A stretch of DNA of 63,969 bases, filler included, from Reclinomonas americana ATCC 50394 (Eukaryota): NCBI GenBank assembly GCA_048213135.1. It is 17 parts of 17 records of this genome, joined end to end, with 100 filler letters (N's around TTAATTAATTAA, not from the genome) between each part and the next. Parts side by side here need not be neighbours in the genome. Positions count along the whole stretch, not along the records: positions 36,075 to 42,578 come from AFZH01019555.1; positions 42,679 to 50,223 come from AFZH01019556.1; positions 50,324 to 56,498 come from AFZH01019557.1; positions 56,599 to 58,656 come from AFZH01019558.1; positions 58,757 to 62,808 come from AFZH01019559.1; 12 more parts are not named here. One strand, given 5' to 3'. This document shows positions 20,758-63,044 of this stretch, in pieces; positions within the stretch are counted from its first letter, which is position 1; the number at the start of each line of letters is the position of its first letter. The notes under the pieces are model-generated. The model searched no databases. It was given only the letters and a program-made list of their open reading frames with translations, and had not been told where the DNA came from. The translations under genes and the position numbers were made by a program.

Positions 20758-20803
<46 letters not shown>

Positions 20804-27362: not shown

Positions 27363-30267
<2,905 letters not shown>

Positions 30268-30469
30268 TGCTTCTTGTTGTTGATGATGAGGTGGTACAAT
30301 TGCACATGCGGGACAGGGGACGTAAGATGGATGAAGCAAGCGGCGGCGTGGCGAGGAATGCGGTTATGTGCGTCACGGAGGAGAGGAAGAGAGGAATCCG
30401 CGCGTGTAGGAGAAAAAACGTGGTGGATTTGAGTTGTCCTGCATTCGGTGTGAAGTCGATCGGCAACAC

Positions 30470-31113: not shown

Positions 31114-31160
<47 letters not shown>

Positions 31161-41319: not shown

Positions 41320-42770
41320 GTTTTGTGGTGTTGTTGATGTTTTTGACAAGATGTTGAACTCGGCAAGTCTGTGTGTTTGGCGACGACAACAACAACAACA
41401 ACAAGAGTGTGTGAGTTGGTGTGTCTGTGACGAGGACAGCAACAACGCACGAGCGTGCGACAGTGTGAGAAGAGAGACAAGTGAACGAGCATGGCCATCT
41501 CATGTCTCGCACACGCTCACGCATGTGTGCATGCACGGGTGCAAAACGAGCACGGAAGAGAAAGAGAGACAGAAGAGCGACACAGGAAGAGTGAAGTGTG
41601 CTCTGCCTCACCGCAAGAACTTTGTTGGTGCAGACTCCGTTGACTGAGTGGACTTGATATCGATTTTCCCGATTGCACTTCCGACAACTGCGTTGACGGC
41701 CGAGCTCAGCAGCGTCCGAGACAACAACGTGAGCAGCAATCCAGATCCTGGCGACACGACACTATTGGCATGTTTTTCCTGTGTGCTCGAATTCGCGCAA
41801 TCCGGCAACTGTGCAACGCTGCGGAGGCAGCGCATGCGCACATATGCGCAAGGTGCTCGTCAGCCATACGAGTCACTGATAATGTGAGACGAAATAACTT
41901 CCTCGCCGCGATCTCCGGTTGAAAATGCTCGTGAAATTCGAAGTTGTCGCGATCGGAGAAAATCGGTGGCACGTGGTCTGTGAAACTGAAGCATCGCACG
42001 ACATAGATAACCGGAAGAAAAGATGAATCGCCACAACCTTGAAAAGGCTCGCTCGCTTCAGGGCTCGAATTTCAACAAGCAGCGTAACCAATTGCCCAAT
42101 ATCGGATCAATTCTTCTTTTGTTTAATCTGTTCCAGTGCTTGCAGCAGACAACCACGGTCTCTTCGCACACGTCAGCTGAACAGCAAGTGTCTGGCTGCG
42201 TATGCCACTGGCTCTCTCCTCTGTTATGAGTGTGCAGTTTCGAAACTGGCGCCGCCGAATATTCTCTGTCGTCCCTTGTTGTGCAAGATGACCAAAAGCA
42301 CAACTCACACACGCACACGCACGCACAAACGCGCGCTCTATTCACACACATTGAGAAGCGGACAAGGAATCTTCCTCTCCCCGCAGTACAGACAGCAACG
42401 AGAGGGTGCTCATCTTGATCACATCTTCAACTGGCAAAAGTGGCCATTGTGTTTGCGACCAATCTGCTGACCATCACACGTGCCCCCCCCCCCCCCTCCC
42501 CTCGTCTCCACAGCAGTGAGCGACACACGACACACGTTCTGTGGTAACAGCGGGAGAGACAGGCGGCAGCTGGCGTCCNNNNNNNNNNNNNNNNNNNNNN
42601 NNNNNNNNNNNNNNNNNNNNNNTTAATTAATTAANNNNNNNNNNNNNNNNNNNNNNNNNNNNNNNNNNNNNNNNNNNNACACCTGTGGCAAGCACAACCT
42701 TGTCTACATCCACCACGTGCGACAGTATCGTGCTGCGCGTCAACCGCACAGACGGCGGCGACATACAGGC

Positions 42771-44383
42771 ATGAGCAACGGAGGTGGCGGCGATTCTGAC
42801 CGTCATCGCCCTCCAGCCACAACCACCACAACAACCACCACAACAACCACAACAGCAACAGCAACAGAGTCAGCAGGAGGAGGAGGAAGTGAGGGGGAAT
42901 CTTCGACGACTGGCCGCACACAACCACGACGGGAAACCACGACGACGACGGCGGAGGCCAGACACCACGTCCACCCGTCGCCACCTCGACGTTCTACGTC
43001 CCCACCACCACCACCACCACCATCACCTCCCGCCAATGCTCGACCGCAGACGTCACCACTGCACACGCAGCAACAGCATGTCAGGGAGGGCGAGCTGGAG
43101 GACGACGAGGAGGATGACGACGCACTGAACGACCCAGTTGGCGGCGGCGAGCGCAAGAAATCGCGCTTCAGCAGGGTGCAGGCATGTCGGCCACACCCCT
43201 GTGCGCACACACCACACCTCTCCACTCTGTGCTCACTCACTGCTGTTGTGCACAGACGGAGCATCTGCGCAGTGTGTTTGAGACGCAGCCGTATCCCAAT
43301 CTGGAAGAGAGACAAGCGCTGGCTCATCGACTGGAGACCACCGTCAACAAGGTCAGCAACTGGTTCCAGAACGCGCGTGCACGAGTCAGCCAGGAGCGTC
43401 GCAAGCAGCACGAGCGTGTACTATTCGTAGCCGCACGCCAGCGGCTGTTTGCACAACAACAGCAGCAGAATCAGCGTGACGAGCGCACACCACCACCACC
43501 AGCAACAGCAACAACAGCACCAGCAACTGCAGAGCAGCAGCGGCGGCGAGTGCAACGCGAGATTCCTTCCCCCCTGTCGACCACGACCACGACCACAACC
43601 ACGCCGACATCTGTGCGCAAGAGACGACGATCTCAGACGCCACCACCACCACCGGAAGAGGAGGAGAAGGAGGACCGCAGTACTGCCGGCTCACCATCAT
43701 TCCCCCTGTCGTCGTCGCCATCATCACAAGACACCGACAGTGGCCACATGCCTGCCGTGGGTGTGCGGGATGGCGAGTGTGACGACTTGTCGTCGCCTCC
43801 ACGACAGAGACATGACGAGTCGTCGCGGTCGGTGCCTGTGCCTGTTCCATTGCCTGTGGCAGCAGGCCAGTCGGCCGACGAGATGAAGGCGGCGGCTGAA
43901 GCGTACGTGGCTGCCACGCTTGCGGCACATCCAAGTTTGACCTCGTCGCCAACACTGACGGTGGGGGTGTGCGTTGCCGAGGCGATGCGGTACCAGCTGC
44001 TTGCCGACGCCTTCCGCAACCTCGCCGCTCGCCTCGTCATGCCGTCGCAGCACGTGGCGACTGCCATGGACGTGGAAGAACCACTGCGTTCCCCGCAACA
44101 CGCAGCAGAGTCCATCCCGCACATGCACCAGCTGCTGGCGGCAGTGGAGAGTCGGAGAAGCGGCGGGCTTCCAACTCCTTCTTCACCTCCAGCTGCAAGA
44201 GTGCCATCTGTTGTTGCCAGCGTAGCTCTGAACGGAGACGCTGGTGGACGGCATGCACATGAGCCAACAGCTGCGCCAACGCAATCAGTCGCCACTGCAG
44301 CCTCCGAGCAACAACAACAACAGCAACTACACCAAGTACATGCTTCAGTTCGTGGCACGTGGCCTGGCTCACGTCCACGCTGA
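42771..44383 (+). CDS. Homeobox gene type A, copy 1 (exons 42771-43181, 43256-44383; 512 aa)
   Basis: Spliced RKKSRFSRVQ/TEHLRSVFETQPYPNLEERQALAHRLETTVNKVSNWFQNARAR has canonical homeodomain spacing (F8, Q12, L16, F20, W48, F49, N51, R53). Confidence 0.92.
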
Positions 44384-46139
44384 CTTGGATGCAGTGAATA
44401 CACCAGCAGCCACACTGCAGCGGCAACCTTGCTCCCATTTTCCTGTGTCGGAGTGAGTGTGTGGTACACAGAGAGAGAGAGCAAGACCAGAAAGGGTAAG
44501 TGTGGACGAATATCGTACCCTGAAGCGCATCTCTCTCTCACGAGGAAGGAGGGGCGAGGGCCACTCACTCAGCTCTCGGGGAGAGGAGAAGGAGGCAACA
44601 ATGGACAAACGCCAGCGAGTGGAAACACAAAAAACTCGTCATCTTTCGTCTCTGTCTGTCGCGAGCAGACAGACGACTGACGATCGACGAAAACGAGCGA
44701 GGGAACAGAAGATCAGAGGCGAGGAGTGAGAGAGTGTTGCAGTGTGTGTTTACATAGAGAGCGGGTTCACATCCAACATGGAGTGAGTGAGGAGCGGGCG
44801 CGCACATACATACACGCACCTGTAATGTGTACATCTTCAAATCGTTATTACTTTGAAAGGAAGGGAGGAGCTGGCACGCCTGGTGGGGAATGGTGAGCAC
44901 GCAGTGGGTGCAGGGCAACGTGTGGCGTGAAGAGTGGTGGAGCGACGGCGACAGGGAGAGAGTGGTGTAGCGTGTGTACATGGTGGGAGATCATGGTCGC
45001 GCACCTGACCACTCGCCCTCTCCTCCTCGTGCGCTGAAGAGGGACAGGCGTGCAAGAAGGCACACACCGCATACAAGACAACCCCCCGCTGTCACCAGCA
45101 GTCGGCAGCTCTCACACTCTTTCTTGTCATTCACAGAGGAGACAAGTGGAGTTGCTCTCACCGAATCCCACGGCCGAGCGCACCTTGCCGCGGTCATTAT
45201 CTCTCTGTCTCCTCTCTCTGTCTCTCTGTCCCCTCCCTGCCATCTCTGGACAGAAGAGGAGAGAGTGAGGACGGATGAGAAACACAGACCCACAGTGAGA
45301 GACGCCTGCGCCTCTCTCTCTGTCAACACAGAAAAGGAGTTCATGTGTTGCCGGAAATTTAACTCATGCCTGCAGCTTTTTTACTCTCTGACTGGTATCT
45401 CCATTTATGTGAGGGGGTTGGTGTTGGTGACTGCTGCGGTGTGTTCTGACACGTGATACACGTCATTAGCACCTGGCTGGTACCAGCAAGCCAGCTGCAG
45501 CCGCCCACCAGTGCGATTGGAGAATCATCAAGTGTCGGCTTTCGCCAATCTGGCCTTCTCCACTTGTCACTGCCCACTCTTGTACAGTCTCGTCGCAACT
45601 CTCACGCACGCGCACAACGTGCTGATCGTGGAGAGTGAGAGTGACAGACAGAGTCTCTGTCTGCCGTATCGATGCATTCCACTCTCGACATTGAAGTCGA
45701 ACCAGACATTCGAATATTCGATGATTCGGATTCTCCGCTCTTCTCGTGCTGTTCCAGTGCAGTCGCCACATTGCTGCCGTATGTACTACGAGCGCAGAGC
45801 TGGTCTCGTCGCACAGCCGGCATGAGTCTCTGGTAACTGAACTCCAATTCTGATGAATATCCACGAGCGACAATGACCGACCAAAGTTCAACACATCGAG
45901 ATCCACACACACACGCACACGCATGCACACACACGCAAGAAAAGAGAATGAGAAAGCCCTCCCACTAGTCGTCGTCCTCCTCTCTGAAATCAAAGGCAAG
46001 CACAACTCGTGGCGGACAGGTGATCAGCAATCTTGTGTTCACTGCTCTCTGATACGCACACCCCGAGTGAGACACACCCACACTGGCATCAACAGCACGA
46101 GAGGCGGTCGCGGCTGACACACAAGATGCCCCCTTCCCC

Positions 46140-46238
<99 letters not shown>

Positions 46239-46768
46239 ATGAGGTCCGAGTCAGCTTGGTACCGACGTCACGAACCGGACTCATCATCCCAAAAAACGAA
46301 AAGAGTCTCACTGTCGCGATACGGAATATTTCTCTGACTCAGTGAGTGTGCGCGTGCTCTCTATGCCCAGTCACACACAGCACTTGCCAGCCACACACAT
46401 AGACACGTAGTCCATCCCACAAGAAAAAAGATGCTATTCATGTTGGGTGTCGTGCGCAAGCCATCACGCGTGTGAAACAAGTCCTGCAGTTGAACGCTCG
46501 TTTCGTCTGTGTACTTCGTGTGTGGCGCGCAGACACACAGCCAATTGCTCACTCAGCTCTTTCTTTCTCATCTCATCTCATCTCTCTCTTCCGTTTCCCA
46601 CTTGCTGTCTCTGTGTGTCTGTCCCTCCGTTTTCTCTCCCGCAACACGCACACAACTGGCAATAACAACTTTGTCTACATCCCTTCGCGCGCATAGGTGG
46701 CAGTATCGTGCCACTCGTGGCTGCTCGTGGACCACTGACAGGCCTGCCACACGCCACCACATACCAGC

Positions 46769-48378
46769 ATGAGCGACGGCGATTGTGATCGTCAACTCTC
46801 TCCAGCCTCCACCACCACCACCACCAACACAGCAGCAGCAACAGCAGCAGGTGGATCTCCAACAACGAACCATGGCACTCGTACAAGGGAAACCACTGCC
46901 GCCACCAACCGTCTCGTCCATTCTGCTCAACATACTTCGCCACCATCTGCCGTGGCCGTTGCCGCCGCCGACGTCACATCTGGTCAGCGTCGTCGTAACC
47001 GGCGCCGGTCGCACACATCTGGGAAGCAGCACGAGGAGCATGTCAGCGACGAGAGCGACGAGGATGGCGAGGAGGAGGAGGAGGAGGAGGACGATGACGT
47101 ACTCAACGACCCACTGCATGACGAGCGCAAATCGCGCTTCAGCAAGACGCAGGCATGTCGGCCACCACACCTCGCACCACCCCCTCTCACTCACTCATTC
47201 GCTCACTCACCCACGCACGTGCATGCACAGGCAGAGTTCCTGCACAGAACATTCGCGACGAAGCCGTACCCCAATCGAGGAGAGAGCGGCGCTGGCCAGT
47301 CGACTGGCGACAACAGTCAGCAAAATCAGCAACTGGTTCCAGAATGCACGCTCGCGCGTCAGCAGAGAGCGTCGCAAGCAGCAAGAGCATGCACTACTGG
47401 TTGCCGCACGCCAGCGGATGCTCGCTCAGCAACATCATGATCAGCAGATGCAACAACATGAGCAACTCGCACCATCACAATCGAGTGTGTCGCCGTGGCA
47501 GCGAGGAGCGACAAAGGCGAATCCGCCAGCAGATCCAACAGCAACCACAACGACCACGACAGCTACCATGCGCAAGAGACGTCGCTCACGGACTCCACCC
47601 GCCGAGGTGTCACAATGCAACACCAGTTAGCTTCCGACTTGCGATCGGTGGTGGTGGCGATGAGACGTCGCCGCCACACAAGAGACACAACGAGTCGCCA
47701 GGAATCGGAGCCAGAGGGTGGCCAATGCCGTTGCCAGTGCCGTTGCCAGTGCCAGTGCCAGAGCCAGCAGCAGGAGTCAGTGTCGTGGACTGTTGCCATG
47801 GTGTGCTGCACGAGTCGGCCGACGACATGAAGGCGGCGGCCGCAGCATACGTGGCCGCTGCACTGGCGGCCCATCCAAGTTTGACCACGTCGCCCACACG
47901 GACAGCACGCCTGTGCATTGCGGAGGCCATGAGGCATCAGCTGCGCGCCGATGCCTTTCGCAGGCACGCCACTCACCTGGCAACGTCGCACCTGCAATCG
48001 ACGGCAGTTGTGCAAGAACCGCATGCACACCATCACCAACTCGCGGAGTCCATTCCGCACATGCACCAGCTGCTGGCTGCCGTGGACAGTCGCAGAAGAA
48101 GCGGTGGCGACGGCATCGACGCCTCACTGCCGCCTCCAATGCCTGTTGGAGGAGAGTCATCAATCGCTGCAAGTCTCGCATGCGCAATCAATGGCGGTGG
48201 AGGTCTCCACGCATACGCCCCAGCTGCTGCCGCGCCTGTGCAGCAGCTGCTGGCGCCACTGGCCTTGACGGCCTCCACACTTTCCGAGCAACAGCGACTT
48301 CAGCAACAACAACTACATCCAGTACACTCGTCAGTTCGTGCCACCTCGTGGCCTGCAGACAGTGCATGGCCACACTGA
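46769..48378 (+). pseudogene. Homeobox gene type B, copy 1; two frameshifts (probable pseudogene)
   Basis: Relative to copy 2: a 2-nt AG deletion at ~47281-47286 inside the homeodomain and a 1-nt insertion at ~47627 creating TAG at 47628-47630. Confidence 0.7.
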
Positions 48379-50668
48379 CACAACTCAAGTGAACACACCA
48401 CAGCAGTGCATCATCCTCGATACTCTCTGCAGGGGTGACAGCAGAGGAGCAGCAGATGCGGTGGGAGATTTGGTGAGTGCGGTGCACCAAGAAGGAAGAG
48501 ATACGTGGGAGAGAAGAGAGAGAGAGAGAGAGGAACTCACAGGAGCAAGAACTGCCTAAGCACGCGATGTGCTGCGAGGGGAACGACAACGACGAGGAGC
48601 AACAAAGAAAGAAAGAGAGCAGCGGACAAAAATCACCCAGACGAATCAACGAAACTGGCCCGGAGACCATGGGAGAGTGGGGCATGAGTGTGTGTCTATG
48701 TGCATGTGCACAGAGTGCGTGCACGTTTCAGTCTGGGGAGTAATGTCCGTGAACTCCTGAAATTGAGACAACCGCATAACGAAGAAGGCGCAGCGTGAAG
48801 AGAGTGTTGGATGGGGGTTTGCAGGTGCACAGGAAGACACGTGTTGGGAGTGATGGTGCTGCGGCAGTAGCAGGAAGAGGAGGAGGAGGGAGGGAGAAAG
48901 GAGAAGAGGAGGAGGGGAGTGGGTTCATTGTTGGCAAAAAAGTGTGTGTTGGAGGTCATGCTCACCGTGCCCACCACCGCCCACTCTCCTCGTCCTTGTG
49001 TGGATGGGAAGCACACACATGTTACACTATAGACTTGTCTCTTGCATCACCGGCAGTTGCACTCGCGGTCGCCTCGGTGCACGTTGTGATCATGCATGCA
49101 TGATCCTTCTATCTCCTCTGTATCTCCTCTCTCTTCTCTCGCATTGCTTCCTTCTGCTGCGTGGGTGGAGGGTGGGCGCTTGCTTGCTGCTGCTAGCTGC
49201 TGCTACTGGTGCTTCACCGCGCCAGTGGCGTCGACGACGACGGTGAGACTGTTGCTGTTTATGGCAACTCGCTGTCTTGCTGGAAATTTAACGGGGTACC
49301 CTCACTGGTATCTCCTCCAATGCATGGTGGTCGCTGGTGCTGCGCATGCATTGCCCTCCTACTTACGGTCGTCTTGCACCCAAGTGCGAACCGCGAGTGT
49401 GATGGTGGGTCGTCGCGTTTGCACGTGTGTGAGATACTGGCCAGTAGGCATATATAGATATCGGAAGTCAAGAACAACAACAACGACGACGACGACAACA
49501 ACAGCAACACCAGTGCACGCAGTGGCATGGTGCTCAGCCTCTTCAGTGAGTACCAGAAATGGAGACAAGTCACGGTTCCGGACCAGGAGAATGTGCGATC
49601 ATGAATTCGAAACTGGTGACCAAGTGCAGCAATGCGGGATTGCAAGCGCAGCCGCGGGCTTTGCTAATGGCAATCTGCTCACTGGTAGACGTATGCCGTC
49701 CGTCAGGTGACCTCGAGCAGAGGGACCGCAACAGTCTGCTTCCGACTCTTTCCAGTGGTTCGAAATTGAATTCCCCCCTTCTTTTCATCCATCACTCTCA
49801 ACACTGGCATGCATGAGACAGGCATCGTTTTCCCTCATCAGCAGAAGTGTGCCACTGGCTCTCACTTTTGTCATGAGTGTGCAGTTTCGAAACTGGCGCC
49901 GCCGAATATTCTCTCGCGTCCCTTGTTGTGCAAGATGACCAAAAGCACAACTCACACACGCACACGCACGCACAAACGCGCGCTCTATTCACACACACAT
50001 TGAGGGGCGGACAAGGAATCTTCCTCTCTCCGCAGTACAGACAGCAACGAGAGGGCGCTCATCTTGATCACATCTTCAACTGGCAAAAGTGGCCATTGTG
50101 TTTGCGACCAATCTGCTGACCATCACACGTGCCCTCCCTCCCTCCCTCCTCATCACAGCAGTGAGTGACACACGACACACGTTCTGTGGTGACAGTGGGA
50201 GAGACAGGCGGCAGCTGGCGTTCNNNNNNNNNNNNNNNNNNNNNNNNNNNNNNNNNNNNNNNNNNNNTTAATTAATTAANNNNNNNNNNNNNNNNNNNNN
50301 NNNNNNNNNNNNNNNNNNNNNNNGACAATGTCGACGAGAGAATATATGCTCATGGGTGTCGCGCATTCGGCATGCGATGATGTGCGACGACGCCGCAAGC
50401 AGCAGTCGACGGAAGTCCTCTGCCTTCCATCATTTCGCTGTCTGGTACCCCCGTCACAGCGCCACCAACAACCACCCACTCTGTCGCCCTCTCGGCTCTG
50501 TTCTTTCTGTCTCTCTCCCTCTCTCCATCTCACCCTCCGATTCTCTCTCTCTCTCTCTCTCATTCTCCTCGCTCACACACCTGTGGCAACCACAACCTTG
50601 TCTATATCCACCACGTGCGACAGTATCGTGCTGCTCGTCAACCGCACAGACGGCGGCGACATACAGGC

Positions 50669-52302
50669 ATGAGCAACGGAGGTGGCGGCGATTCTGACCG
50701 TCATCGCCCTCCAGCCACCAAAACAACCACCACAACAACAACAACCACAGCAACAGCAACAGTGTCAGCAGGAGGAGGAGGAAGTGAGGGGGAATCTTCG
50801 GCGACTGGCCGCACACAACCACGACGGGAAACCACGACGACGACGGCGGAGGCCAGACACCACGTCCACCCGTCGCCACCTCGACGTTCTACGTCCCCAC
50901 CACCACCACCACCACCACCACCACCACCACCACCTCCCGCCAATGCTCGACCGCAGACGTCACCACTGCACACGCAGCAACAGCATGTCAGGGAGGGCGA
51001 GCTGGAGGACGACGAGGAGGATGACGACGCACTGAACGACCCAGTTGGCGGCAGCGAGAGCAAAAAATCGCGCTTCAGCAGGGTGCAGGCATGTCGGCCA
51101 CACCCCTGCACACACACACCACACCTCTCCACTCTGTGCTCACTCACTGCTGTTGTGCACAGACGGAGCATCTGCGCAGTGTGTTTGAGACGCAGCCGTA
51201 TCCCAATCTGGAAGAGAGACAAGCGCTGGCTCATCGACTGGAGACCACCGTCAACAAGGTCAGCAACTGGTTCCAGAACGCGCGTGCACGAGTCAGCCAG
51301 GAGCGTCGCAAGCAGCACGAGCGTGTACTATTTGTAGCCGCACGCCAGCGGCTGTTTGCACAACAACAGCAGCAGAATCAGCGTGACGAGTGCACATCAC
51401 CACCACCAGCAGCAGCAACACTAGCAGCAACAGCAGAGCAGCAGCGGTGGCGAGTGCAACGCGAGATTCCTTCCCCCCTGTCGACCACGACCACGACCAC
51501 AACCACTCCGACATCTGTGCGCAAGCGACGACGATCTCAGACGCCGCCACCACCGGAAGAGGAGGAGAAGGAGGACCGCAGTACTGCCGGCTCACCATCA
51601 TTCCCGCTGTCGTCGTCGCCATCATCACAAGACACCGACAGTGGCCACATGCCTGCCGTGGGCGTGCGGGATGGCGAGAGTGACGACTTGTCGTCGCCTC
51701 CACGACAGAGAGATGACGAGTCGTCGCGGTCGGTGCCTGTGCCTGTTCCATTGCCCGTGGCAGCGGGCCAGTCGGCCGACGAGATGAAGGCGGCGGCTGA
51801 AGCGTACGTGGCCGCCACGCTTGCGGCACATCCAAGTTTGACCTCGTCGCCAACACTGACGGTGGGGGTGTGCGTTGCCGAGGCGATGCGGTACCAGCTG
51901 CGTGCCGACGCCTTCCGCAACCTCGCCGCCCGCCTCGTCATGCCGTCGCAGCACGTGGCGACTGCCATGGACGTGGAAGAACCACGGCGTTCCCCGCAAC
52001 ACGCAGCAGAGTCCATCCCGCACATGCACCAGCTGCTGGCGGCAGTGGAGAGTCGGAGAAGCGGCAGTGGCGATGCCTCGGTGCTTCCAACTCCTTCTTC
52101 ACCTCCAGCTGCAAGAGTGCCATCTGTTGTTGCCAGCGTAGGTCTGAACGGAGACGCTGGTGGACGACATGCACATGAGCCAACAGCTGCGTCTACACAA
52201 TCAGTCGCCACCTCCGAGCAACAACAACAACAACAACAGCAGCAACTACACCAAGTACATGCTTCAGTTCGTGGCACGTGGCCAGGCTCACGTCCACGCT
52301 GA
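50669..52302 (+). CDS. Homeobox gene type A, copy 2 (exons 50669-51088, 51163-52302; 519 aa)
   Basis: Same homeodomain and 74-nt GC-AG intron as copy 1; frame intact. Confidence 0.92.
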
Positions 52303-54631
52303 CTTGGATGCAGTGAATACACCAGCAGTCACACTGCAGCAGCAACCTTGCTCCCATTTTCCTGTGTCGGAGTGAGTGTGTGGCACAGAGAGAGAGAGAG
52401 AGGCACGACCAGAAAGGGTAAGTGTGGACGAATAACGTTCCTTGAAGCGCATCTCTCTCACACGAGACACGAGGAAGGAGGGGCGAGGGCCACTCACTCA
52501 GCTCTCGGGGGAGAGGAGAAGGAGGCAACAATGGACAAACGCCGGCGAGTGGAAACACAAAAACTCGTCATCTCTGTCGCGAGCAGACAGACGACTGACG
52601 ATCGACGAAAACGAGCGAGGGAACAGAAGATCAGAGGCGAGGAGTGAGAGTGCTGGAGTGTGTGTTTACATAGAGAGCGGGTTCACATCCAACATGGAGT
52701 GAGTGAGGAGCGGGCGCGCACGCACATACATACACGCACCTGTAATGTGTACATCTTCAAATCGTTATTACTTTGAAAGGAAGGGAGGAGCTGGCACGCC
52801 TGTTTGCGCGTGGAGAGCACGCAGTGGGTGCAGGGCAACGTGTGGCGTGAAGAGTGGTGGAGCGGCAGCGACAGGGAGAGAGTGGTGTAGCGTGTGTACA
52901 TGGTGGGAGATCATGGTCGCGCACCTGACCACTCGCCCTCTCCTCCACGTGCGCTGAAGAGGCACACGGGTGCACGAAAGCACGCACTCCGCACAAGACA
53001 ACCCCCCGCTGTCACCAGCAGCCGGCATCTCTCACACTCTTTCTTCTCACTCACAGAGGAGACAGGTGGAGTTGCTCTCACCGAATCCCATGCACATGGC
53101 CGAGCGCACCTTGCCGCGGTCATTACCTCTCTGTCTCCTCTCTCTGTCTCTCTGTCCCCTCCCTGCATTCTCTGGACAGAAGAGGAGAAAGTGAGGACGG
53201 ATGAGAAACACAGACCCACAGTGAGAGACGCCTGCGCCTCTCTCTCTGTCAACACAGAAAAGGAGTTCATGTGTTGCCGGAAATTTAACTCATGCCTGCC
53301 TGCAGCTTTTTTACTCTCTGACTGGTATCTCCATTTATGTGAGGGGGTTGGTGTTGGTGACTGCTGCGATGTGTTCTGACACGTGATACACGTCATTAGC
53401 ACCTGGCTGGTACCAGCAAGCCAGCTGCAGCCGCCCACCAGTGCGATTGTAGAATCATCAAGTGTCGGCTTTCGCCAATCTGGCCTTCTCCACTTGTCAC
53501 TGCCCACTCTTGTACAGTCTCGTCGCAACTCTCACGCACGCGCACAACGTGCTGATCGTGGAGAGTGAGAGTGACAGACAGAGTCTCTGTCTGCCGTATC
53601 GATGCATTCCACTCTCGACATTGAAGTCGAACCAGACATTCGAATATTCGATGATTCGGATTCTCCGCTCTTCTCCTGCTGTTCCAGCGCAGTCGCCACA
53701 TTGCTGCCGTGTGTACTACGAGTGCGGAGCAGGTCTCACCACGCAGCCGGCATGAGTCTCTGGTAACTGAACTCCAATTCTGACGAATATCCACGAGCGA
53801 TAACGACCGACCAAGTTCAACACATCGAGATCCACACACACATGCACACGCATGCACACGCAAGAAAAGAGAATGAGAAAGCCCTCCCACTAGTCGTCGT
53901 CCTCTTCTCTGAAATCAAAGGCAAGCACAACTCGTGGCGGACAGGTGATCAGCAATCTTGTGTTCACTGCTCTCTGATACGCACACGCACTCCCACCCCG
54001 AGTGACACACACACGCGCTGGCATCAACAGCATGAGAGACGGTCGCGGCTGACACACAAGATGCCCCCTCCCCCCGCACATACACACACGAATGAGGTCC
54101 GAGTCAGCTTGGTACCGATGTCACGAACCGGACTCATCATCCCAAAAAACGAAATGAGTCTCGCTGTCGCGACACGGAATATCTCTCTGACTCAGTGAGT
54201 GTGTGTGTGCTCTCTATGCCCAATCACATACTGCACTTGCTAGTCACACTCAGAAGCACGCAGTCCATCCCACAAGAAAAAAGATGCTATTCATGTTGGG
54301 TGTCGTGCGCAAGCCATCACGCGTGTGAAACAAGTCCTGCAGTTGAACGCTCGTTTCGTCTGTGTGTACTTCGTGTGGCGCGCAGACACACAGCCAATTG
54401 CTCACTCGGCTCTTTCTTTCTCATCTCATCTCATCTCATCTCTCTCTTCCGTTTCTCACTTGCTGTCTCTTGAGTGTCTGTCCCTCCGTTTTCTCTCCCG
54501 CAACACGCACACAACTGGCAATAACAACTTTGTCTACATCCCTTCGCGCGCATAGGTGGCAGTATCGCGCCACTCGTGGCTGCTCGTGGCCCACCGACAG
54601 GCCTGCCTCACGCCACCACATATATACCAGC

Positions 54632-56205
54632 ATGAGCGACGGCGATTGTAATCGTCAACTCTCTCCAGCCTCCAACACCACCAGCACCACAACAACAACA
54701 GCAGCAACAGCAGCAAGCGAATCTCCAACAGCGAACCATGGCACTCGTACAAGGGAAACCACTGCCGCCACCAACCGTCTCGTCCACTCTGCTCAACACT
54801 CTTCGCCACCACCAGCCGCGGCCGTTGCCACGCCTGCTCAGCATCGTCGCCGGTCGCACACACCATCGCCGCTCACACCTGGGCAGCAGCATGAGGATGG
54901 CGAGAAGGAGGAGGAGGAGGAGGACGATGACGTACTCAACGACCCACTGCATGACGAGCGCAAATCGCGCTTCAGCAAGACGCAGGCATGTCGGCCACCA
55001 CACCTCGCACCACCCCCTCTCACTCACTCATTCGCTCACTCACGCACGTGCATGCACAGGCAGAGTTCCTGCACAGAACATTCGCGACGAAGCCGTACCC
55101 CAATCGAGGAGAGAGAGCGGCACTGGCCAGTCGACTGGCGACAAGCGTCAGCAAAATCAGCAACTGGTTCCAGAATGCACGCTCGCGCGTCAGCAGAGAG
55201 CGTCGCAAGCAGCAAGAGCACGCGCTGCTGGTTGCCGCACGCCAGCGGATGCTCGCTCAGCAACATCATGATCAGCAGATGCAACAACATGAGCAACTCG
55301 CACCATCACAATCGAGTGTGTCGCCGTGGCAGCGAGGAGCGACAAAGGCGAATCCGCCAGCAGATCCAACAGCAACCACCACGACCACAACAACTGCCAT
55401 GCGCAAGAGACGTCGCTCACGGACTCCACCCACCGCGGCGTCACAATGCAACACCAGCAGCTTGCGACTTGCGATTGGTGGTGGTGATGAGACGTCGCCG
55501 CCACACAAGAGACACAACGAGTCGCCAGCAATCGGAGCCAGAGGGTGGCCAATGCCGTTGCCAGTGCCGTTGCCAGTGCCAGTGCCAGAGCCAGCAGCAG
55601 GAGTCAGTGTCGTGGACTGTTGCCATGGTGTGCTGCACGAGTCGGCCGACGACATGAAGGCGGCGGCCGCAGCATACGTGGCCGCTGCACTGGCGGCCCA
55701 TCCAAGTTTGACCACGTCGCCCACACGGACAGCACGCCTGTGCATTGCGGAGGCCATGAGGCATCAGCTGCGCGCCGATGCCTTTCGCAGGCACGCCACT
55801 CACCTGGCAACGTCGCACCTGCAATCGACGGCAGTTGTGCAAGAACCGCATGCACACCATCACCAACTCGCGGAGTCCATTCCGCACATGCACCAACTGC
55901 TGGCTGCCGTGGACAGTCGCAGAAGAAGCGGTGGCGACGGCATCGACGTCTCACTGCCGCCTCCAATGCCTGTTGGAGGAGAGTCATCAATCGCTGCAAG
56001 TCTCGCATGCGCAATCAATGGTGGTGGAGGTCTCCACGCATACGCCCCAGCTGCTGCCGCGCATGTGCAGCTGCTGCCGGCACCACTGGCCTTGGCGGCC
56101 TCCACACTTTCCGCGCAACAGCGACTTCAGCAACAACAACTACATCCAGTACACTCGTCAGTTCGTGCCACCACGTGGCCTGCAGACAGTGCATGGCCAC
56201 ACTGA
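54632..56205 (+). CDS. Homeobox gene type B, copy 2 (exons 54632-54985, 55060-56205; 499 aa)
   Basis: Spliced RKSRFSKTQ/AEFLHRTFATKPYPNRGERAALASRLATSVSKISNWFQNARSR; frame intact. Confidence 0.92.
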
Positions 56206-56335
56206 CACAACTCAAGTGAACACACCACAGCAGTGCATCATCATCGATACTCTCTGCACGGGTGACAGCAGAGGAGCAGCAGATGCGGTGGGAGATTTGG
56301 TGAGTGCGGCGCACTAAGAAGGAAGAGACACGTGG

Positions 56336-56377
<42 letters not shown>

Positions 56378-56667
56378 GACACGAGAGACGAACGAACGTA
56401 CGTACCGTAAACCAACGCGAGTAGTGTCGTACCGGACGGGAACGGAACGAACGAACGGACGGAGACGAACAAAGAAGACGACGACGGAACGTAAAAACNN
56501 NNNNNNNNNNNNNNNNNNNNNNNNNNNNNNNNNNNNNNNNNNTTAATTAATTAANNNNNNNNNNNNNNNNNNNNNNNNNNNNNNNNNNNNNNNNNNNNGA
56601 CGTACGACGTACGTACGACGACGTAGACGTAGTACGACGTAGTACGACGTACGACGAGACGAGAGAG

Positions 56668-56779
<112 letters not shown>

Positions 56780-58848
56780 CTCACAGGAGCAAGAACTGCC
56801 TAAACACGCGATGTGCTCCGAGGGGAACGACAACGACGAGGAGCAACAAAGAGCAGCGGACAAAAATCACCCAGACGAATCAACGAACGAGTGGCCCGGA
56901 GACCATAGAAGAGTGGGGGCATGAGTGTGCGTGTGCATGTGCACAGAGTGCGTGCACGTTTCAGTCTGGGGAGAATAATGTCGGCGAACTCCTGAAATTG
57001 AGACAACCGCATAACGAAGAAGGCGCAGCGTGAAGAGAGTGTTGGATGGGGGTTTGCAGGTGCACAGGTGCACAGGAAGACACGTGGTGTTGGGAGTGAT
57101 GGTGCTGCGGCAGTAGCAGGAAGAGGAGGAGGGAGGGAGGGAGAAAGGGAGAAGAGGAGGAGGGGAGTGCACGTCGGTTCATTGTTGGCAAAAAAGTGTG
57201 TGTTGGAGGTCATGCTCACCGTGCCCACCACCGCCCGCTCTCCTCGTCCTTGTGTGGATGGGAAGCACACACATGTTACACTATAGACTTGTCTCTTGCA
57301 TCACCGGCAGTTGCACTCGCGGTCGCCTTATCTGCACGGTGCACGTTGTGATCATGCATGCATATGATCCTTCTATCTCCTCTGTATCTCCTCTCTCTTC
57401 TCTCTCATTGCTTTGCTTTCCTTCTGCTGCGTGGGTGGAGGGTGGGCGCTTGCTTGCTGCTGCTACAGGTGCTACTGGTGCTTCACCGCGCCAGTGGCGT
57501 CGACGACGACGGTGAGACTGTTGCTGTTTATGGCAACTCGCTGTCTTGCTGGAAATTTAACGGGGTATCCTCACTTGTATCTCCTCCAATGCATGGTGGT
57601 CGCTGGTGCTGCGCATGCATTGCCCTCCTACTTACGGTCGTCTTGCACCCAAGTGCGAACCGCGAGTGTGATGGTGGGTCGTCGCGTTTGCACGTGTGTG
57701 AGATACTGGCCAGTAGGCATATATAGATATCGGAAGTCAAGAACAACAACAACAACGACGACGACAACAACAGCAACACCAGTGCACGCAGTGGCATGGT
57801 GCTCAGCCTCTTCAGTGAGTACCAGAAATGGAGACAAGTCACGGTTCCGGACCAGGAGAATGTGCGATCATCGATCGCAAAACTGGTATCCAAGTGTAAC
57901 GTGCGGGATTGCAAGCACAGCCGCAGGCTTTGCTTGAGGTAGTCTGCTCACCGACAGATGCCTGCCGTCCGCCAGGCGACCTCGAGCAGAGAGACGCAAC
58001 AGTCTGCTTCCGACTCTTTCCTGTGGTTCGAAATTGAATTTCCCCCCTTCTTTTCATCCATCACTCTCAACACTGGCGTGCATGAGGCAGGCATCGTTTT
58101 CCCTCATCAGCAGAAGTGTGACACTGGCTCTCTCCTCTGTTATGAGTGTGCAGTTTCGAAACTGGCGCCGCCGAATATTCTCTCGCGTCCCTTGTTGTGC
58201 AAGATGACCAAAAGCACAACATAACACACACGCACACGCACAAACGCGCGCTCTATTCACACACACATTGAGAAGCGGACAAGGAATCTTCCTCTCTCCG
58301 CAGTACAGACAGCAACGAGAGGGCGCTCATCTTGATCACATCTTCAACTGGCAAAAGTGGCCATTGTGTTTGCGACCAATCTGCTGACCATCACACGTGC
58401 CCTCCCTCCCTCCCTCCTCATCACAGCAGTGAGTGACACACGACACACGTTCTGTGGTGACAGTGGGAGAGACAGGCGGCAGCTGGCGTCCGCTCTCCGA
58501 CAGGCAACAAAAAAGGTCCGACGTGAGTCAGCCAATTTCCCACACAGCACACAACACAGCAGCACACGAATTACTGGCGGTGCAAGTCAAGCCACACGAC
58601 AAAACAAGCTGTCCTCTCTCCCCACCACGACACACAGAAACGAGAGGTCTGGAGTGNNNNNNNNNNNNNNNNNNNNNNNNNNNNNNNNNNNNNNNNNNNN
58701 TTAATTAATTAANNNNNNNNNNNNNNNNNNNNNNNNNNNNNNNNNNNNNNNNNNNNACACCTGTGGCAACCACAACCTTGTCTACATCCACCACGTGCGA
58801 CAGTATCGTGCTGCACGTCAACCGCACAGACGGCGGCGACATACAAGC

Positions 58849-60446
58849 ATGAGCAACGGCGGCGGCGGCGATTCTGACCGTCATCGCCCTCCAGCCACAA
58901 CCACAACCACAGCAACAGCAGCAACAGCAACAGTGTCAGCTGGAGGAGGAGGCAGAGAGGGGGAATCTTCGGCGACTGGCCGCACACAACCACGACGGGA
59001 AACCACGACGACGACGACGGCGGAGGCCAGACACCACGTCCACCCGTCGCCGCCTCGACGTTCTACGTCCCCACCACCACCACCACCACCATCACCACCC
59101 GCCAATGCTCGACCGCAGACGTCACCACTGCACACGCAGCAACAGCACGTCAGGGAGGGCGAGCAGGAGGACGACGAGGAGGATGACGACGCACTGAACG
59201 ACCCAGTTGGCGGCAGCGAGCGCAAGAAATCGCGCTTCAGCAGGGTGCAGGCATGTCGGCCACACCCCTGCACACACACACTACACCCCTCCACTCTGTG
59301 CTCACTCACTGCTGTTGTGCACAGACGGAGCATCTGCGCAGCGTGTTTGAGTCGCAGCCGTATCCCAATCTAGAAGAGAGACAAGCGCTGGCTCATCGAC
59401 TGGAGACCACCGTCAACAAGGTCAGCAACTGGTTCCAGAACGCGCGTGCACGAGTCAGCCAGGAGCGTCGCAAGCAACACGAGCGTGCACTATTCGCAGC
59501 CGCACGTCAGCGACTGTTTGCACAACAACAGCAGCAGAATCAGCGTGACGAGTGCACATCACCACCAGCAACAGCAGCAACACCAGCACCAGCAGAGCAG
59601 CGGCGACGGCAAGTGCAACGCGAGATTCCTTCCCCCCTGTCAACCACGACCACGACCACAACCACGCCGACATCTGTGCGCAAGAGACGACGATCTCAGA
59701 CGCCACCACCACCACCGGAAGAGGAGGAGAAGGAGGACCGCAGTACTGCCGCCTCACCATCATTCCCGCTGTCGTCGTCGCCATCATCACAAGACACCGA
59801 CAGTGGCCACATGCCTGCCGTGGGTGTGCGGGATGGCGAGTGTGACGACTTGTCGTCGCCTCCACGACAGAGACATGCCGAGTCGTCGCGGTCGGTGCCT
59901 GTGCCTGTTCCATTGCCTGTGGCAGCAGGCCAGTCGGCCGACGAGATGAAGGCGGCGGCTGAAGCGTACGTGGCCGCCACGCTTGCGGCACATCCAAGTT
60001 TGACCTCGTCGCCAACACTGACGGTGGGGGTGTGCGTTGCCGAGGCGATGCGGTACCAGCTGCGTGCCGACGCCTTCCGCAACCTCGCCGCTCGCCTCGT
60101 CATGCCGTCGCAGCACGTGGCGACTGCCATGGACGTGGAAGAACCACGGCGTTCCCCGCAACACGCAGCAGAGTCCATCCCGCACATGCACCAGCTGCTG
60201 GCGGCAGTGGAGAGTCGGAGAAGCGGCGGGCTTCCAACTCCTTCTTCACCTCCAGCTGCAAGAGTGCCATCTGTTGTTGCCAGCGTAGCTCTGAACGGAG
60301 ACGCTGGTGGACGGCATGCACATGAGCCAACAGCTGCGCCAACGCAATCAGTCGCCACTGCAGCCTCCGAGCAACAACAACAACAGCAACTACACCAAGT
60401 ACATGCTTCAGTTCGTGGCACGTGGCCAGGCTCACGTCCACACTGA
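58849..60446 (+). CDS. Homeobox gene type A, copy 3 (exons 58849-59250, 59325-60446; 507 aa)
   Basis: Near-identical homeodomain (ESQPYP) and the same 74-nt GC-AG intron; frame intact. Confidence 0.92.
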
Positions 60447-61598
60447 CTTGGGATGCAGTGAATACACCAGCAGCCACACTGCAGCAGCAACCTTGCTCCC
60501 ATTTTCCTGTGTCGGAGTGAGTGTGTGACACAGAGAGAGAGAGAGGCAAAGGCAAGACCAGAAAGGGTAAGTGTGGACGAATATCGTACCCCGAAGCGCA
60601 TCTCTCTCACACGAGGAAGGAGGGGTGAGGGCCACTCACTCAGCTCTCGGGGGAGAGGAGAAGGAGGCAACAATGGACAAACGCCAGCGAGTGGAAACAC
60701 AAAAAAAACTCGTCATCTTTCGTCTCTGTCTCTGTCGCGAGCAGACAGACGACTGACGATCGACGAAAACGAACGAGCGAGGGAACAGAAGATCAGCGGC
60801 GAGGAGTGAGAGTGAGAGAGTGTTGAAGTGCTGGAGTGTGTGTTTACATAGAGAGCGGGTTCACATCCAACATGGAGTGAGGGGCGGGCGCGCACGCATA
60901 CACGCACCTGTAATGTGTACATCTTCAAATCGTTATTACCACGAAAGGCGTCAAGGAGGAGCTGGCACGCCTGCTTGCGCGTGGAGAGCACGCAGTGGGT
61001 GCATGGCAACGTGTGGTATGAAGAGTGGTGGAGCGGCGGCGACAGGGAGAGAGTGGTGTGGCGAGTGCACATGGTGGGAGATCATGGTCGCGCACCTGAC
61101 CACTCGCCCTCTCCTCCTCGTGCGCTGGGGAGGCACAGGCGTGCACAAAAGCACGCACTCTGCACAAGACAGCCCCCCGCTGTCACCAGCAGTCAGCGTC
61201 TCTCACACTTTTTCTTGTCACTCACAAAGGAGACAAGTGGAGTTTCTCTCACCGAATCCCATGGCCGAGCGCACCTTGCCGCGGTCATTACCTCTCTGTC
61301 TCCTCTCTCTGTCTCTGTCCCCTCCCTGCCATCTCTGGACAGAAGAGGAGAGAGTGAGGACGGATGAGAAACACAGACCCACAGTGAGAGACGCCTGCGC
61401 CTCTCTCTCTGTCAACACAAAAGGAGTTCATGTGTTGCCGGAAATTTAACTCATGCCTAGGCCTGCAGCTTTTACTCTCTGACTGGTACATTATGTGAGG
61501 TTGGTGTCGGTGACTGTCGCGGTGCGTTCTGCTCTCACTCGGCAAGTTCTATAAAGCCAACGTTGCAACTGACTCGCAATAATTAACACGAAGCATTT

Positions 61599-62808: not shown

Positions 62809-63044
62809 NNNNNNNNNNNNNNNNNNNNNNNNNNNNNNNNNNNNNNNNNNNNTTAATTAATTAANNNNNNNNNNNNNNNNNNNNNNNNNNNNNNNNNNNN
62901 NNNNNNNNGGTGAAAGATCTTTCCGTGTGGACTGACAAGCACAGGCAGGGTTAAGTTCACACTCACAACCGCGTTGCCGGAGTACACATGATAGAATCAG
63001 TCGTCGCAGGACAAGCGATCTCACAATTGTACAAGTTGTCTCAC

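What the first reader, a model, noticed from the sequence alone, without database searches (positions are those of the whole stretch)
42207..61530. Tandem array of an alternating two-gene homeobox cassette (A-B-A-B-A)
Seen: an ~8 kb unit containing two diverged paralogous homeobox genes separated by gene-free ~2.3-2.6 kb spacers, much longer than other intergenic distances here. It is repeated head-to-tail ~2.4 times with many substitutions and indels between copies, so the copies are not identical assembly duplicates. An old A/B duplication was followed by recent amplification of the pair. A gap falls at the same place in every unit, so true copy number may be higher. Established: paired homeodomains control mating and zygote programmes in fungi and green algae, and tandem homeobox arrays (DUX/D4Z4, Rhox, Obox) evolve rapidly in mammals. 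Inference: a lineage-specific life-cycle, mating or dosage-regulated homeobox locus. This is the strongest candidate for an undescribed system in the window.
Basis: partly seen in the sequence, partly recalled or inferred. Interest (0 to 1): 0.85.

Follow-up and report, generated by a model that had tools for sequence, protein, structure and literature searches.

The report
Tandemly repeated homeobox gene pair
An unidentified microbial eukaryote carries a cluster of two related homeobox (DNA-binding regulator) genes that has recently been copied side by side, an ordinary kind of gene-family growth whose true copy number cannot be fixed because the sequence is stitched together from short pieces.

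Summary
The repeat is real. A unit of about 8 kb holds two paralogous two-exon homeobox genes, A and B (55% protein identity). It appears 2.4 times, and the units are 96% identical at aligned bases. The "gaps" are synthetic 100-nt linkers joining separate contigs. No contig crosses a unit joint. Only A-B-(start of the next unit) is proven, inside one contig. A-B-A-B-A rests on contig order. The second unit could instead be a divergent haplotype; no reads were available to test this.

A1, A2, A3 and B2 are intact, with dN/dS 0.30-0.40 among the A copies. B1 has two frameshifts, one inside the homeobox. The homeodomain is non-TALE. 1.84 billion representative proteins gave no closer relative than generic homeodomain matches. 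A conserved C-terminal helical block is predicted to dimerise (score 0.71, best control 0.00), which cannot tell homo- from heterodimers.

Nothing supports a mating or life-cycle role. Verdict: a lineage-specific tandem homeobox cluster, a new member of a known kind, of modest interest.

The parts
36146..37444 (+). Gene C: last exon of a third, unrelated homeobox gene (helix 3 ...KVYTWFKNRRVQ...). The rest of its homeodomain is lost at the linker 35975-36074.
   Evidence: No significant similarity to A outside the homeodomain (best E 0.12). Pfam finds nothing because only helix 3 is present.
42200..42578 (+). U1: first 379 nt of the repeat unit (upstream region of A). The left boundary against unique sequence is sharp at 42199/42200, inside a contig.
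   Evidence: 93.4/93.2% to 49847-50221 and 58116-58491.
42579..42678 (.). Synthetic linker (N44-TTAATTAATTAA-N44) between contigs; the U1-to-A1 adjacency is not sequenced.
42771..43181 (+). A1 exon 1 (137 codons: Thr/Pro-rich, acidic stretch, homeodomain residues 1-12).
   Evidence: The ATG and the acidic ...LNDP... motif are conserved in A and B.
43182..43255 (+). A1 intron, 74 nt, GC-AG (donor CAG|GCATGTCGGCC identical in all five copies).
   Evidence: Inferred from the homeodomain register (Pfam match of exon 2 starts at profile position 13). No RNA evidence.
43256..44383 (+). A1 exon 2 (375 codons + stop): homeodomain residues 13-60, helix extension, basic RKRRRS, disordered linker, conserved C-terminal helical block (residues 206-301).
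46769..48378 (+). B1 (exon 1 46769-47152, intron 47153-47230, exon 2 47231-48378). Disrupted by a 2-nt deletion at about 47279 inside the homeobox and a 1-nt insertion at about 47627: a pseudogene or two assembly errors.
   Evidence: dN/dS versus B2 is 0.67.
49847..50223 (+). U2: start of the second unit, contiguous with B1 in the same contig. This is the only in-contig proof that B is followed by another unit.
50224..50323 (.). Synthetic linker.
50669..52302 (+). A2 (exon 1 50669-51088, intron 51089-51162, exon 2 51163-52302), intact, 519 codons.
54632..56205 (+). B2 (exon 1 54632-54985, intron 54986-55059, exon 2 55060-56205), intact, 499 codons.
56499..56598 (.). Synthetic linker inside the B2-to-A3 spacer, next to (GA)n and (GTACGACGTA)n repeats.
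58116..58491 (+). U3: start of the third, partial unit.
58657..58756 (.). Synthetic linker.
58849..60446 (+). A3 (exon 1 58849-59250, intron 59251-59324, exon 2 59325-60446), intact, 507 codons.
60447..61531 (+). 3' flank of A3 still homologous to units 1 and 2. The repeat ends sharply at 61531/61532 inside a contig, followed by a unique WD40 gene on the minus strand (61602-62807).

Best explanation
This is a lineage-specific cluster of tandemly duplicated homeobox transcription-factor genes in an unidentified eukaryote. A block of about 4 kb carrying one two-exon, non-TALE homeobox gene duplicated long ago and diverged into types A and B. More recently the locus grew to the form L-P-Q-P-Q-P-R, where P is the upstream region U plus A plus 1.1 kb of 3' flank, and Q is spacer plus B plus spacer. 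This is the product expected from unequal crossing-over between direct P copies flanking Q. The copies then exchanged patches by gene conversion. Three A copies and one B copy remain under purifying selection, and one B copy (B1) is decaying. The proteins are inferred to be sequence-specific DNA-binding regulators. They are predicted to pair through a conserved antiparallel helical block near the C-terminus, as homodimers and/or A-B heterodimers. Shown: the repeat, gene models, homeodomain type, selection pattern and sharp boundaries. Inferred: splicing of the GC-AG intron, the unequal-crossover origin, dimerisation, any expression, and the copy number beyond A-B-A.
For: The repeat and its age structure are shown. 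Unit-to-unit identity at aligned bases is 95.1-96.4%. A-to-B dS is 0.76-0.86, against 0.05-0.09 between units.

Every junction type lies inside a contig: L|P at 42199/42200, P|Q at 45448/9 and 53378/9, Q|P at 49846/7 and 58115/6, P|R at 61531/2.

Four of five copies keep open frames of 499-519 codons. dN/dS among A copies is 0.30-0.40, and between A1 and B2 it is 0.31-0.44 in each of five domains.

Relationships among the three A copies are mosaic. Private differences number 43, 50 and 78. The odd copy out changes along the sequence.

Homeodomain: Pfam PF00046 E 1.2e-11 to 2.9e-9, aligned without a gap to profile positions 13-54.

Contig order is meaningful where it can be tested: the cullin profile runs in order across two other linkers. 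None of the 12 linkers outside the array is flanked by duplicated sequence.

Dimer prediction: score 0.71, best of 3 controls 0.00. That mark was reached by 51 of 78 solved complexes and 2 of 108 mismatched pairs. On eukaryotes it was reached by 39 of 65 solved pairs with no like older complex and by 2 of 126 unrelated pairs. The runs agree in at least 75% of contacts, and the partner's pLDDT is at least 59. The interface (A residues 239-261) is the block most conserved between A and B outside the homeodomain.
Against: No contig bridges any U-to-A joint; all three are linkers. A-B-A-B-A therefore rests on contig order only. The counts of distinct pieces (3 U, 3 A, 2 Q) also fit an A-B-A locus with its middle assembled as two haplotypes. 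Gaps between copies are a listed hallmark of false duplications (PMC9516828).

No read depth, spanning reads or RNA could be obtained. Coding and non-coding divergence between units 1 and 2 are nearly equal (3.4% against 3.8%), so selection on the young copies is only weakly resolved. The counts behind the dN/dS values are small (20-32 synonymous and 23-28 non-synonymous differences per A pair).

GC3 of A and B (0.58-0.59) is below that of four of the five other coding stretches measured (0.68-0.82; the fifth, the WD40 gene at 61602-62807, has 0.50). The AlphaFold model is confident only for residues 1-80 (mean pLDDT 48). Close relatives of a true partner also pass the complex test (10 of 12), so the pass does not show A-B rather than A-A binding.
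Confidence: 0.55

Rival explanations
1. Assembly artefact for the extra unit. The real locus is A-B-A. Contig 42679-50223 and contigs 50324-56498 plus 56599-58656 are two divergent haplotypes of the same middle segment, laid one after the other.
For: A linker sits at every unit joint. Gaps between copies are a listed hallmark of false heterotype duplications (PMC9516828). The piece counts 3 U, 3 A, 2 Q fit this reading exactly. U2 and U3 are closer to each other (96.6% over about 477 nt) than to U1 (93.2-93.4% gapped over the roughly 377 nt they share). A3 has the most private differences (78 against 43 and 50), as expected if A1 and A2 are alleles and A3 a paralogue.
Against: The supposed alleles differ by 3.6-3.8% substitutions plus 50 indel events. 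The flanking contigs and the other 42 kb show no haplotig-like duplicate at any of the 12 other linkers. The divergent block would have to span exactly one repeat period. In 44179-44428 A1 matches A3 and A2 is the odd one (16 of 19 variable sites). A1-A2 identity (96.4%) is barely above A1-A3 (95.5%).
Confidence: 0.3
2. A life-cycle or mating-type-like locus. A and B are partner homeodomain proteins whose heterodimer switches a developmental programme, as in fungal HD1/HD2, KNOX/BELL or ORO/SAM. The divergent units would be alleles or specificities.
For: Two diverged paralogues are encoded side by side. Their conserved C-terminal blocks are predicted to bind (0.71, best of 3 controls 0.00; mark reached by 51 of 78 solved complexes and 2 of 108 mismatched pairs; runs agree in at least 75% of contacts; partner pLDDT at least 59). 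Paralogous homeodomain pairs direct the haploid-to-diploid switch in many lineages (PMC8476127, passages).
Against: Both are the same non-TALE type, whereas the pairs whose classes are stated in the passages read include a TALE partner. Both genes are on the + strand. The predicted interface is two-fold symmetric (pairs such as A246-B239 and A250-B235, with B numbering offset by 11), so it gives no self/non-self discrimination. The A copies are 95-96% identical in protein, far less diverged than mating specificities (the latter is recalled, not tested). There is no expression or strain data.
Confidence: 0.08
3. A decaying, unexpressed duplicate cluster with no present function.
For: B1 carries two frameshifts. 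Coding and non-coding divergence between units are almost equal. GC3 is lower than in four of the five other coding stretches measured. 1.84 billion representatives gave no closer relative than generic homeodomain matches.
Against: Four of five copies keep frames of about 500 codons. dN/dS is 0.30-0.40 among A copies and 0.31-0.44 between A1 and B2 in each of five domains. The start codon, stop position, splice-donor sequence and two protein blocks are conserved between A and B at dS of about 0.8.
Confidence: 0.07

Closest known systems
Tandem arrays of fast-evolving PRD-like homeobox genes in mammals (DUX/D4Z4 macrosatellite, Rhox, Obox, LEUTX arrays)
   Same: Head-to-tail repeated units each carrying homeobox genes, with recent lineage-specific copying. 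The best solved-structure match of the A homeodomain is DUX4 homeodomain 1 (E 3.6e-11). The top hit in the 1.84-billion search is a sheep model with 8 DUX-like repeats at 39% identity.
   Different: One homeodomain per gene rather than two. An alternating two-gene unit. Only 2.4 units. The likeness is at general homeodomain level only, with no shared flanking domains. The organism is a microbial eukaryote of unknown lineage. My knowledge of these arrays rests on search listings and abstracts only (PMC13558733, PMC10531175, PMC8208926) plus recall.
[quoted passage not shown]
   Same: Two paralogous homeodomain proteins, here encoded as neighbours and predicted to associate.
   Different: Those systems, as described in PMC8476127 (passages), include a TALE partner wherever the classes are stated. 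A and B are both 60-residue non-TALE domains, are transcribed in the same direction, and have a symmetric predicted interface in a C-terminal block. No mating-type or gamete-specific information exists.
False heterotype duplications in draft assemblies (Ko et al. 2022, PMC9516828)
   Same: Near-identical copies on one scaffold with a gap between each pair.
   Different: Half depth, haplotype-specific k-mers and discordant pairs could not be tested. At least one extra copy is real, because A1, B1 and the start of a further unit lie in one contig, and A3 has its own unique right flank.

Membership tests
Homeodomain proteins (Pfam PF00046) | Profile match above the curated cut-off | tested here: met
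   44.0, 37.0 and 44.7 bits for exon 2 of A1, B2 and A3, against a cut-off of 22.9. A2 and B1 were not scanned; A2 is 95% identical to A1.
Homeodomain proteins (Pfam PF00046) | Helix-3 signature W48-F49-x-N51-x-R53 and core residues F8, L16, F20 | tested here: met
   Read directly from the translations (RFSRVQ|TEHLRSVF...VSNWFQNARAR). F8 lies in exon 1, so it depends on the inferred splice.
Homeodomain proteins (Pfam PF00046) | A complete 60-residue domain in the mature mRNA (removal of the GC-AG intron between positions 12 and 13) | not testable with these tools
   No RNA data. Support is indirect: the exon 2 match starts at profile position 13, and the donor sequence is identical in all 5 copies.
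TALE superclass homeodomains | Three extra residues between helix 1 and helix 2 | tested here: not met
   residues 2-43 align to profile positions 13-54 without a gap. There are four residues between F20 and Y25. Homeobox_KN also matches (31-33 bits) but only from the PYP motif onward.
Life-cycle / mating homeodomain heterodimer pairs | Partners of different homeodomain classes, at least one TALE | tested here: not met
   A and B have the same non-TALE architecture and 55% identity. The criterion is taken from passages of PMC8476127.
Life-cycle / mating homeodomain heterodimer pairs | Physical heterodimerisation of the two proteins | tested here: inconclusive
   score 0.71, best of 3 controls 0.00. 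The mark was reached by 51 of 78 solved complexes and 2 of 108 mismatched pairs. Runs agree in at least 75% of contacts; partner pLDDT at least 59. This is a prediction only. The interface is symmetric and close relatives also pass, so homodimers are equally possible.
Life-cycle / mating homeodomain heterodimer pairs | Gamete- or mating-type-specific expression or presence | not testable with these tools
   No runs were listed and no genome is held.
DUX-type macrosatellite homeobox arrays | Two homeodomains per protein | tested here: not met
   One Homeodomain stretch in each exon 2 scanned (A1, A3, B2). One WF.N.R motif per gene in all five.
False heterotype duplication (assembly artefact) | Gap between the duplicated copies on the same scaffold | tested here: met
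   Linkers at 42579, 50224 and 58657. The criterion is from PMC9516828.
False heterotype duplication (assembly artefact) | Half read depth and haplotype-specific k-mers | not testable with these tools
   Searches gave no reads or genome.

The most novel reading that the evidence does not exclude
The two units are not simple copies. They would be a dosage-variable or allelic homeobox cassette whose A and B proteins heterodimerise through a previously undescribed C-terminal helical domain to switch a life-cycle stage. That would be a non-TALE/non-TALE counterpart of the fungal and algal homeodomain switches, in an unsampled eukaryotic lineage.
Probability: 0.08. Interest if true: 0.7.

Novelty: new member of a known kind. 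Interest (0 to 1): 0.33.

Why it matters
Tandem duplication is the ordinary way transcription-factor families grow, so the array itself is not surprising.

Two points have some value. First, these homeobox proteins have no detectable relative beyond the homeodomain among 1.84 billion representative proteins. They carry a conserved block predicted to be a dimerisation module, which would be a new homeodomain partner domain if confirmed. Second, PMC8476127 (passages) explicitly asks for data on homeodomain function from more unicellular lineages, to settle whether non-TALE genes took part in the ancestral haploid-to-diploid switch. A neighbouring, interacting non-TALE pair would be a candidate to test.

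The case is also a clear example of how linker-joined draft contigs can suggest a larger gene array than the sequence proves.

Tried and rejected
Read depth and expression: the look-up of sequencing runs on 42679-50223 listed no run and no RNA holder. None was listed, which is not the same as none existing. Read laying was therefore not used. No whole genome is held for the window.

Relatives: the word-indexed search with A1 exon 2 scored 8000 candidates and none reached E 1e-3. The exhaustive profile search found 258 proteins at E up to 1e-3. In all 150 listed, the best stretch starts at profile position 1-11, that is, in the homeodomain. The Atlas gave only weak homeodomain clusters (0.80) and nothing for the C-terminal block.

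Lineage: a prolidase exon reached at best 49% identity and a cullin exon 54%. The lineage stays unknown. Rfam gave 0 matches in the window. Earlier findings of this scan held nothing relevant.

Structure: the AlphaFold2 model of A1 exon 2 from a 4-sequence alignment has mean pLDDT 48. Only residues 1-80 are confident. No fold search was run because the rest is unreliable.

Rejected readings. TALE class. Kinship of gene C with A/B beyond the homeodomain. A GT donor six bases upstream in A (GTGCAG): it would delete two helix-1 residues and has no counterpart in B. Transposon or extra genes in the spacers (0 of 99 ORFs).

Linker: a search for the linker string found only the different Tettelin-type spacer. 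I could not learn whether the linker comes from the assembly or from how the window was built.

A homodimer control for the complex prediction could not be run, because the cap is one job.

Full report
What the window is. The 63,969-base window is not continuous sequence. It holds 32 runs of exactly 44 N, arranged as 16 pairs. Each pair encloses the same 12 bases, TTAATTAATTAA, which gives stops in all six frames. These are synthetic 100-nt linkers joining 17 contigs of 1,061-7,545 nt. By my reading, about half of the contig ends abut microsatellites or low-complexity runs such as (CT)n, (CA)n, (GA)n and (GTAC)n. That pattern is typical of a short-contig draft. No whole genome is held and no public sequencing run was listed for the locus. 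Everything below therefore rests on the window itself. Contig order is meaningful where it can be tested: segments of a cullin gene match Pfam profile positions 17-89, 338-397, 397-452 and 451-556, then the Nedd8 domain, in rising order across the linkers at 23211 and 25669.

The repeat. 42200-50221 aligns to 49847-58489 in four HSPs of 93.4-94.1% gapped identity. 58757-61531 aligns to 42679-45448 (93.6%) and to 50577-53378 (91.6%). Within each unit, two blocks are 75-76% identical at a spacing of about 4 kb. Counting aligned bases only, the A regions are 96.4% (A1-A2), 95.5% (A1-A3) and 95.1% (A2-A3) identical, with 15-21 indel events each. The rest of unit 1 against unit 2 is 96.2% identical with 35 indel events. 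Outside the array, self-blastn finds only five short local repeats of 150-367 nt. None of the 12 other linkers is flanked by duplicated sequence.

Anatomy and boundaries. Write P for the 379-nt upstream piece U plus gene A plus 1.1 kb of 3' flank (about 3.25 kb). Write Q for spacer plus gene B plus spacer (about 4.4 kb). The scaffold then reads L-P-Q-P-Q-P-R. Every junction type lies inside a contig and is sharp: L|P at 42199/42200, P|Q at 45448/9 and 53378/9, Q|P at 49846/7 and 58115/6, P|R at 61531/2. What is never sequenced is the inside of P between U and A; all three such places are linkers. One contig runs 165 nt beyond U3 and another starts 253 nt before A2. These two pieces do not overlap, so at least 418 nt are hidden. 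A (CT)n run lies directly before A2. Two contigs end at the same homologous base of U, and two start at the same base before A. That looks like an assembly-graph fork at a repeat.

What is proven. The contig 42679-50223 contains A1, B1 and the beginning of another unit, and A3 has its own unique right flank. A-B-A is therefore the minimum. L-P-Q-P-Q-P-R is what unequal crossing-over between two P copies flanking Q would produce. That origin is an inference.

The rival for the extra unit. The counts of distinct pieces (3 U, 3 A, 2 Q) fit equally well an A-B-A locus whose middle segment was assembled twice, from two divergent haplotypes, and laid in tandem. Ko et al. 2022 (PMC9516828, passages read) list gaps between copies, half depth and single-copy k-mers as the marks of such false duplications. 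The first is met here; the others cannot be tested.

Several points count against this rival. The putative alleles differ by 3.6-3.8% plus 50 indel events, while nothing else in 42 kb looks duplicated. The divergent block would span exactly one period. A1-A2 identity barely exceeds A1-A3. In 44179-44428, A1 groups with A3, and A2 is odd at 16 of 19 variable sites.

Some points favour it. U2 and U3 are closer to each other (96.6%) than to U1 (93.2-93.4%). A3 has the most private differences (78 against 43 and 50). I put the scaffolded array at about 0.55 and the haplotype reading at about 0.3.

Gene models. Each copy has an ATG-started exon 1 of 118-140 codons. It ends in ...(K)KSRFS(R/K)(V/T)Q, followed by a 74-78-nt intron. 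Exon 2 has 373-381 codons up to a stop whose position is conserved between A and B. The intron begins CAG|GCATGTCGGCC in all five copies, so it is a GC-AG intron. Five presumptive donors inspected in the cullin and prolidase genes are all GT (these sites are inferred from where homology ends, not from RNA).

The GC donor is favoured for two reasons. The Pfam Homeodomain match of exon 2 starts exactly at profile position 13, and exon 1 supplies F8 and Q12 in register. The nearby GT in A would delete two residues and does not exist in B. A1, A2, A3 and B2 are open throughout, at 512, 519, 507 and 499 codons. Relative to B2, B1 lacks GA in a GAGAGAGA run at about 47279, inside the homeobox. It also has an extra T at about 47627. 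As assembled it stops 69 codons into exon 2. Because the other four copies show no frameshift, I read B1 as a probable pseudogene, but sequencing error is not excluded.

The proteins. Pfam Homeodomain E-values are 2e-11 (A1), 2.9e-9 (B2) and 1.2e-11 (A3). The domain aligns without a gap to profile positions 13-54, so there is no three-residue loop extension and the domain is non-TALE. This holds even though helix 3 (VSNWFQNAR) and the PYP motif look TALE-like and Homeobox_KN also scores 31-33 bits.

Among solved structures the best match is DUX4 homeodomain 1 (E 3.6e-11). PBX/Exd/Meis follow, matching only from residue 10 onward, and then PRD-like domains. No class can be assigned.

The A copies are 95-96% identical in exon 2, and A to B2 is 55%. 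Conserved between A and B are the homeodomain with a helical extension, a basic RKRRRS motif, and a C-terminal block (A residues 206-301: SADEMKAAA...AEAMR.QL.ADAFR...ESIPHMHQLLAAV.SRR).

AlphaFold2 on the 4-sequence alignment is confident only for residues 1-80 (mean pLDDT 48). The exhaustive profile search of 1.84 billion representatives found 258 proteins at E up to 1e-3 (16 at 1e-10, 1 at 1e-30). In all 150 listed, the best stretch begins at profile position 1-11, that is, in the homeodomain. The top hit is a sheep gene model with 8 DUX-like repeats at 39% identity. Other named hits are basidiomycete, amoebozoan and insect homeobox proteins. The search thus gave no closer relative than generic homeodomain matches.

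Selection. dS between A and B2 is 0.76-0.86 and dN 0.39. Between A copies dS is 0.05-0.09 and dN/dS 0.30-0.40. For B1-B2, dN/dS is 0.67. By domain, A1-B2 dN/dS is 0.31 in the homeodomain and in the C-terminal block, and 0.34-0.44 elsewhere. There is no sign of positive selection. Between units 1 and 2, coding divergence is 3.4% (102 of 3,013 sites) and non-coding 3.8% (164 of 4,351). Divergence is patchy, from 0.4 to 11% per 250 nt. The closest pair among A1, A2 and A3 changes along the gene. I read this as gene conversion.

Dimerisation. The conserved C-terminal blocks (A1 residues 200-306 with B2 residues 189-293) gave score 0.71, with the best of 3 controls at 0.00. The mark was reached by 51 of 78 solved complexes and 2 of 108 mismatched pairs. 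On eukaryotes it was reached by 39 of 65 solved pairs with no like older complex and by 2 of 126 unrelated pairs. The runs agree in at least 75% of contacts, and the partner's pLDDT is at least 59.

The model supports binding but does not show it. Contacts centre on A 239-261 and B 228-250. The pairs are reciprocal (A246-B239 and A250-B235, with B numbering offset by 11). That describes an antiparallel, two-fold symmetric helix packing. Close relatives of a true partner also pass this test (10 of 12). The result therefore points to a dimerisation module usable for homodimers and heterodimers alike. No family is known for this block, so the pass is unlikely to come from memory of a solved complex.

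Surroundings. The spacers hold no recognisable gene: 0 of 99 ORFs of 70 aa or more hit Pfam. Rfam gave 0 matches. The spacers do carry microsatellites: (CA)47 at 46142-46236 and (GA)60 at 56656-56776. Upstream lie a prolidase gene on the minus strand (about 38.6-41.5 kb) and a third homeobox gene, C (36146-37444). C has a K50-type helix 3 (WFKNRR), and the rest of its homeodomain is lost at a linker. It is unrelated to A and B outside the homeodomain. Downstream is a WD40 gene on the minus strand. Other stretches of 3-4 kb without recognised genes exist in the window, so the spacers are not exceptional. The organism could not be placed: the best identities were 49% for a prolidase exon and 54% for a cullin exon.

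Comparison with what is known. The locus works like any young tandem transcription-factor cluster. It resembles the mammalian PRD-like arrays (DUX, Rhox, Obox, LEUTX) in layout, but with a single homeodomain per gene and an alternating pair. I saw those papers only as listings and abstracts.

It does not qualify as a member of the homeodomain heterodimer switches of fungi, green plants and brown algae. In the passages of PMC8476127 that I read, those pairs include a TALE partner wherever the classes are stated. The Dictyostelium pair is called too divergent to place. A and B are both non-TALE and are co-oriented. Failing that membership test does not exclude a similar working principle. The same paper asks whether non-TALE genes once took part in the switch, but nothing here speaks for it beyond adjacency and a predicted, symmetric interface.

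Verdict. The interpretation as an undescribed mating or dosage system is not supported. The locus is best filed as a new, lineage-specific member of the known kind 'tandemly duplicated homeobox genes', with a possibly new dimerisation block as its most testable feature.

Noticed in passing
window, 16 sites (e.g. 2998-3097, 42579-42678, 62809-62908): Every 'gap' is the same synthetic 100-nt linker (44 N, TTAATTAATTAA, 44 N). The window is a chain of 17 contigs of 1.1-7.5 kb, so any feature spanning a linker rests on contig order alone.
   Followed up: yes
window 36146-37444 (+): A third homeobox gene (helix 3 KVYTWFKNRRVQ, K50 type) about 5 kb upstream of A1, with a canonical GTGAGT donor right after the linker. 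The rest of its homeodomain is missing at the contig end. Its 430-residue tail has no Pfam match.
   Followed up: partly
window 43179-43192 and the four counterparts (47150, 51086, 54983, 59248): The intron of all five A/B copies starts with GC (CAG|GCATGTCGGCC, identical in all). Five presumptive donors inspected in neighbouring genes are GT. This would be a conserved GC-AG intron splitting the homeodomain between positions 12 and 13.
   Followed up: partly
window 47279 and 47627: B1 carries a 2-nt deletion in a GA run inside the homeobox and a 1-nt insertion 350 nt later. The other four copies have no frameshift.
   Followed up: yes
window 10144-12730 (+): A long ORF with acidic and coiled-coil-like stretches is followed by a protein kinase domain (Pfam Pkinase E 1.5e-19 at 12230-12730). 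It may be one gene with the WD40 ORF at 8986-10140.
   Followed up: no
window 13000-17300, 19600-22600, 29800-33100: Stretches of 3-4 kb where no ORF of 110 aa or more matched Pfam. They may hold lineage-specific genes or be intergenic.
   Followed up: no
window 61602-62807 (-): A WD40 gene with very regular 126-nt (42-residue) repeats (repeat finder D13). Its frame runs open into the linker at 62809, so the gene is cut by a contig end.
   Followed up: no
A and B exon 2 versus other ORFs: GC3 of the A/B genes is 0.58-0.59, against 0.68-0.82 for gene C, the Rad51 paralogue, the TPR gene and the WD40 gene at 8986. Only the WD40 gene at 61602 is lower (0.50).
   Followed up: no
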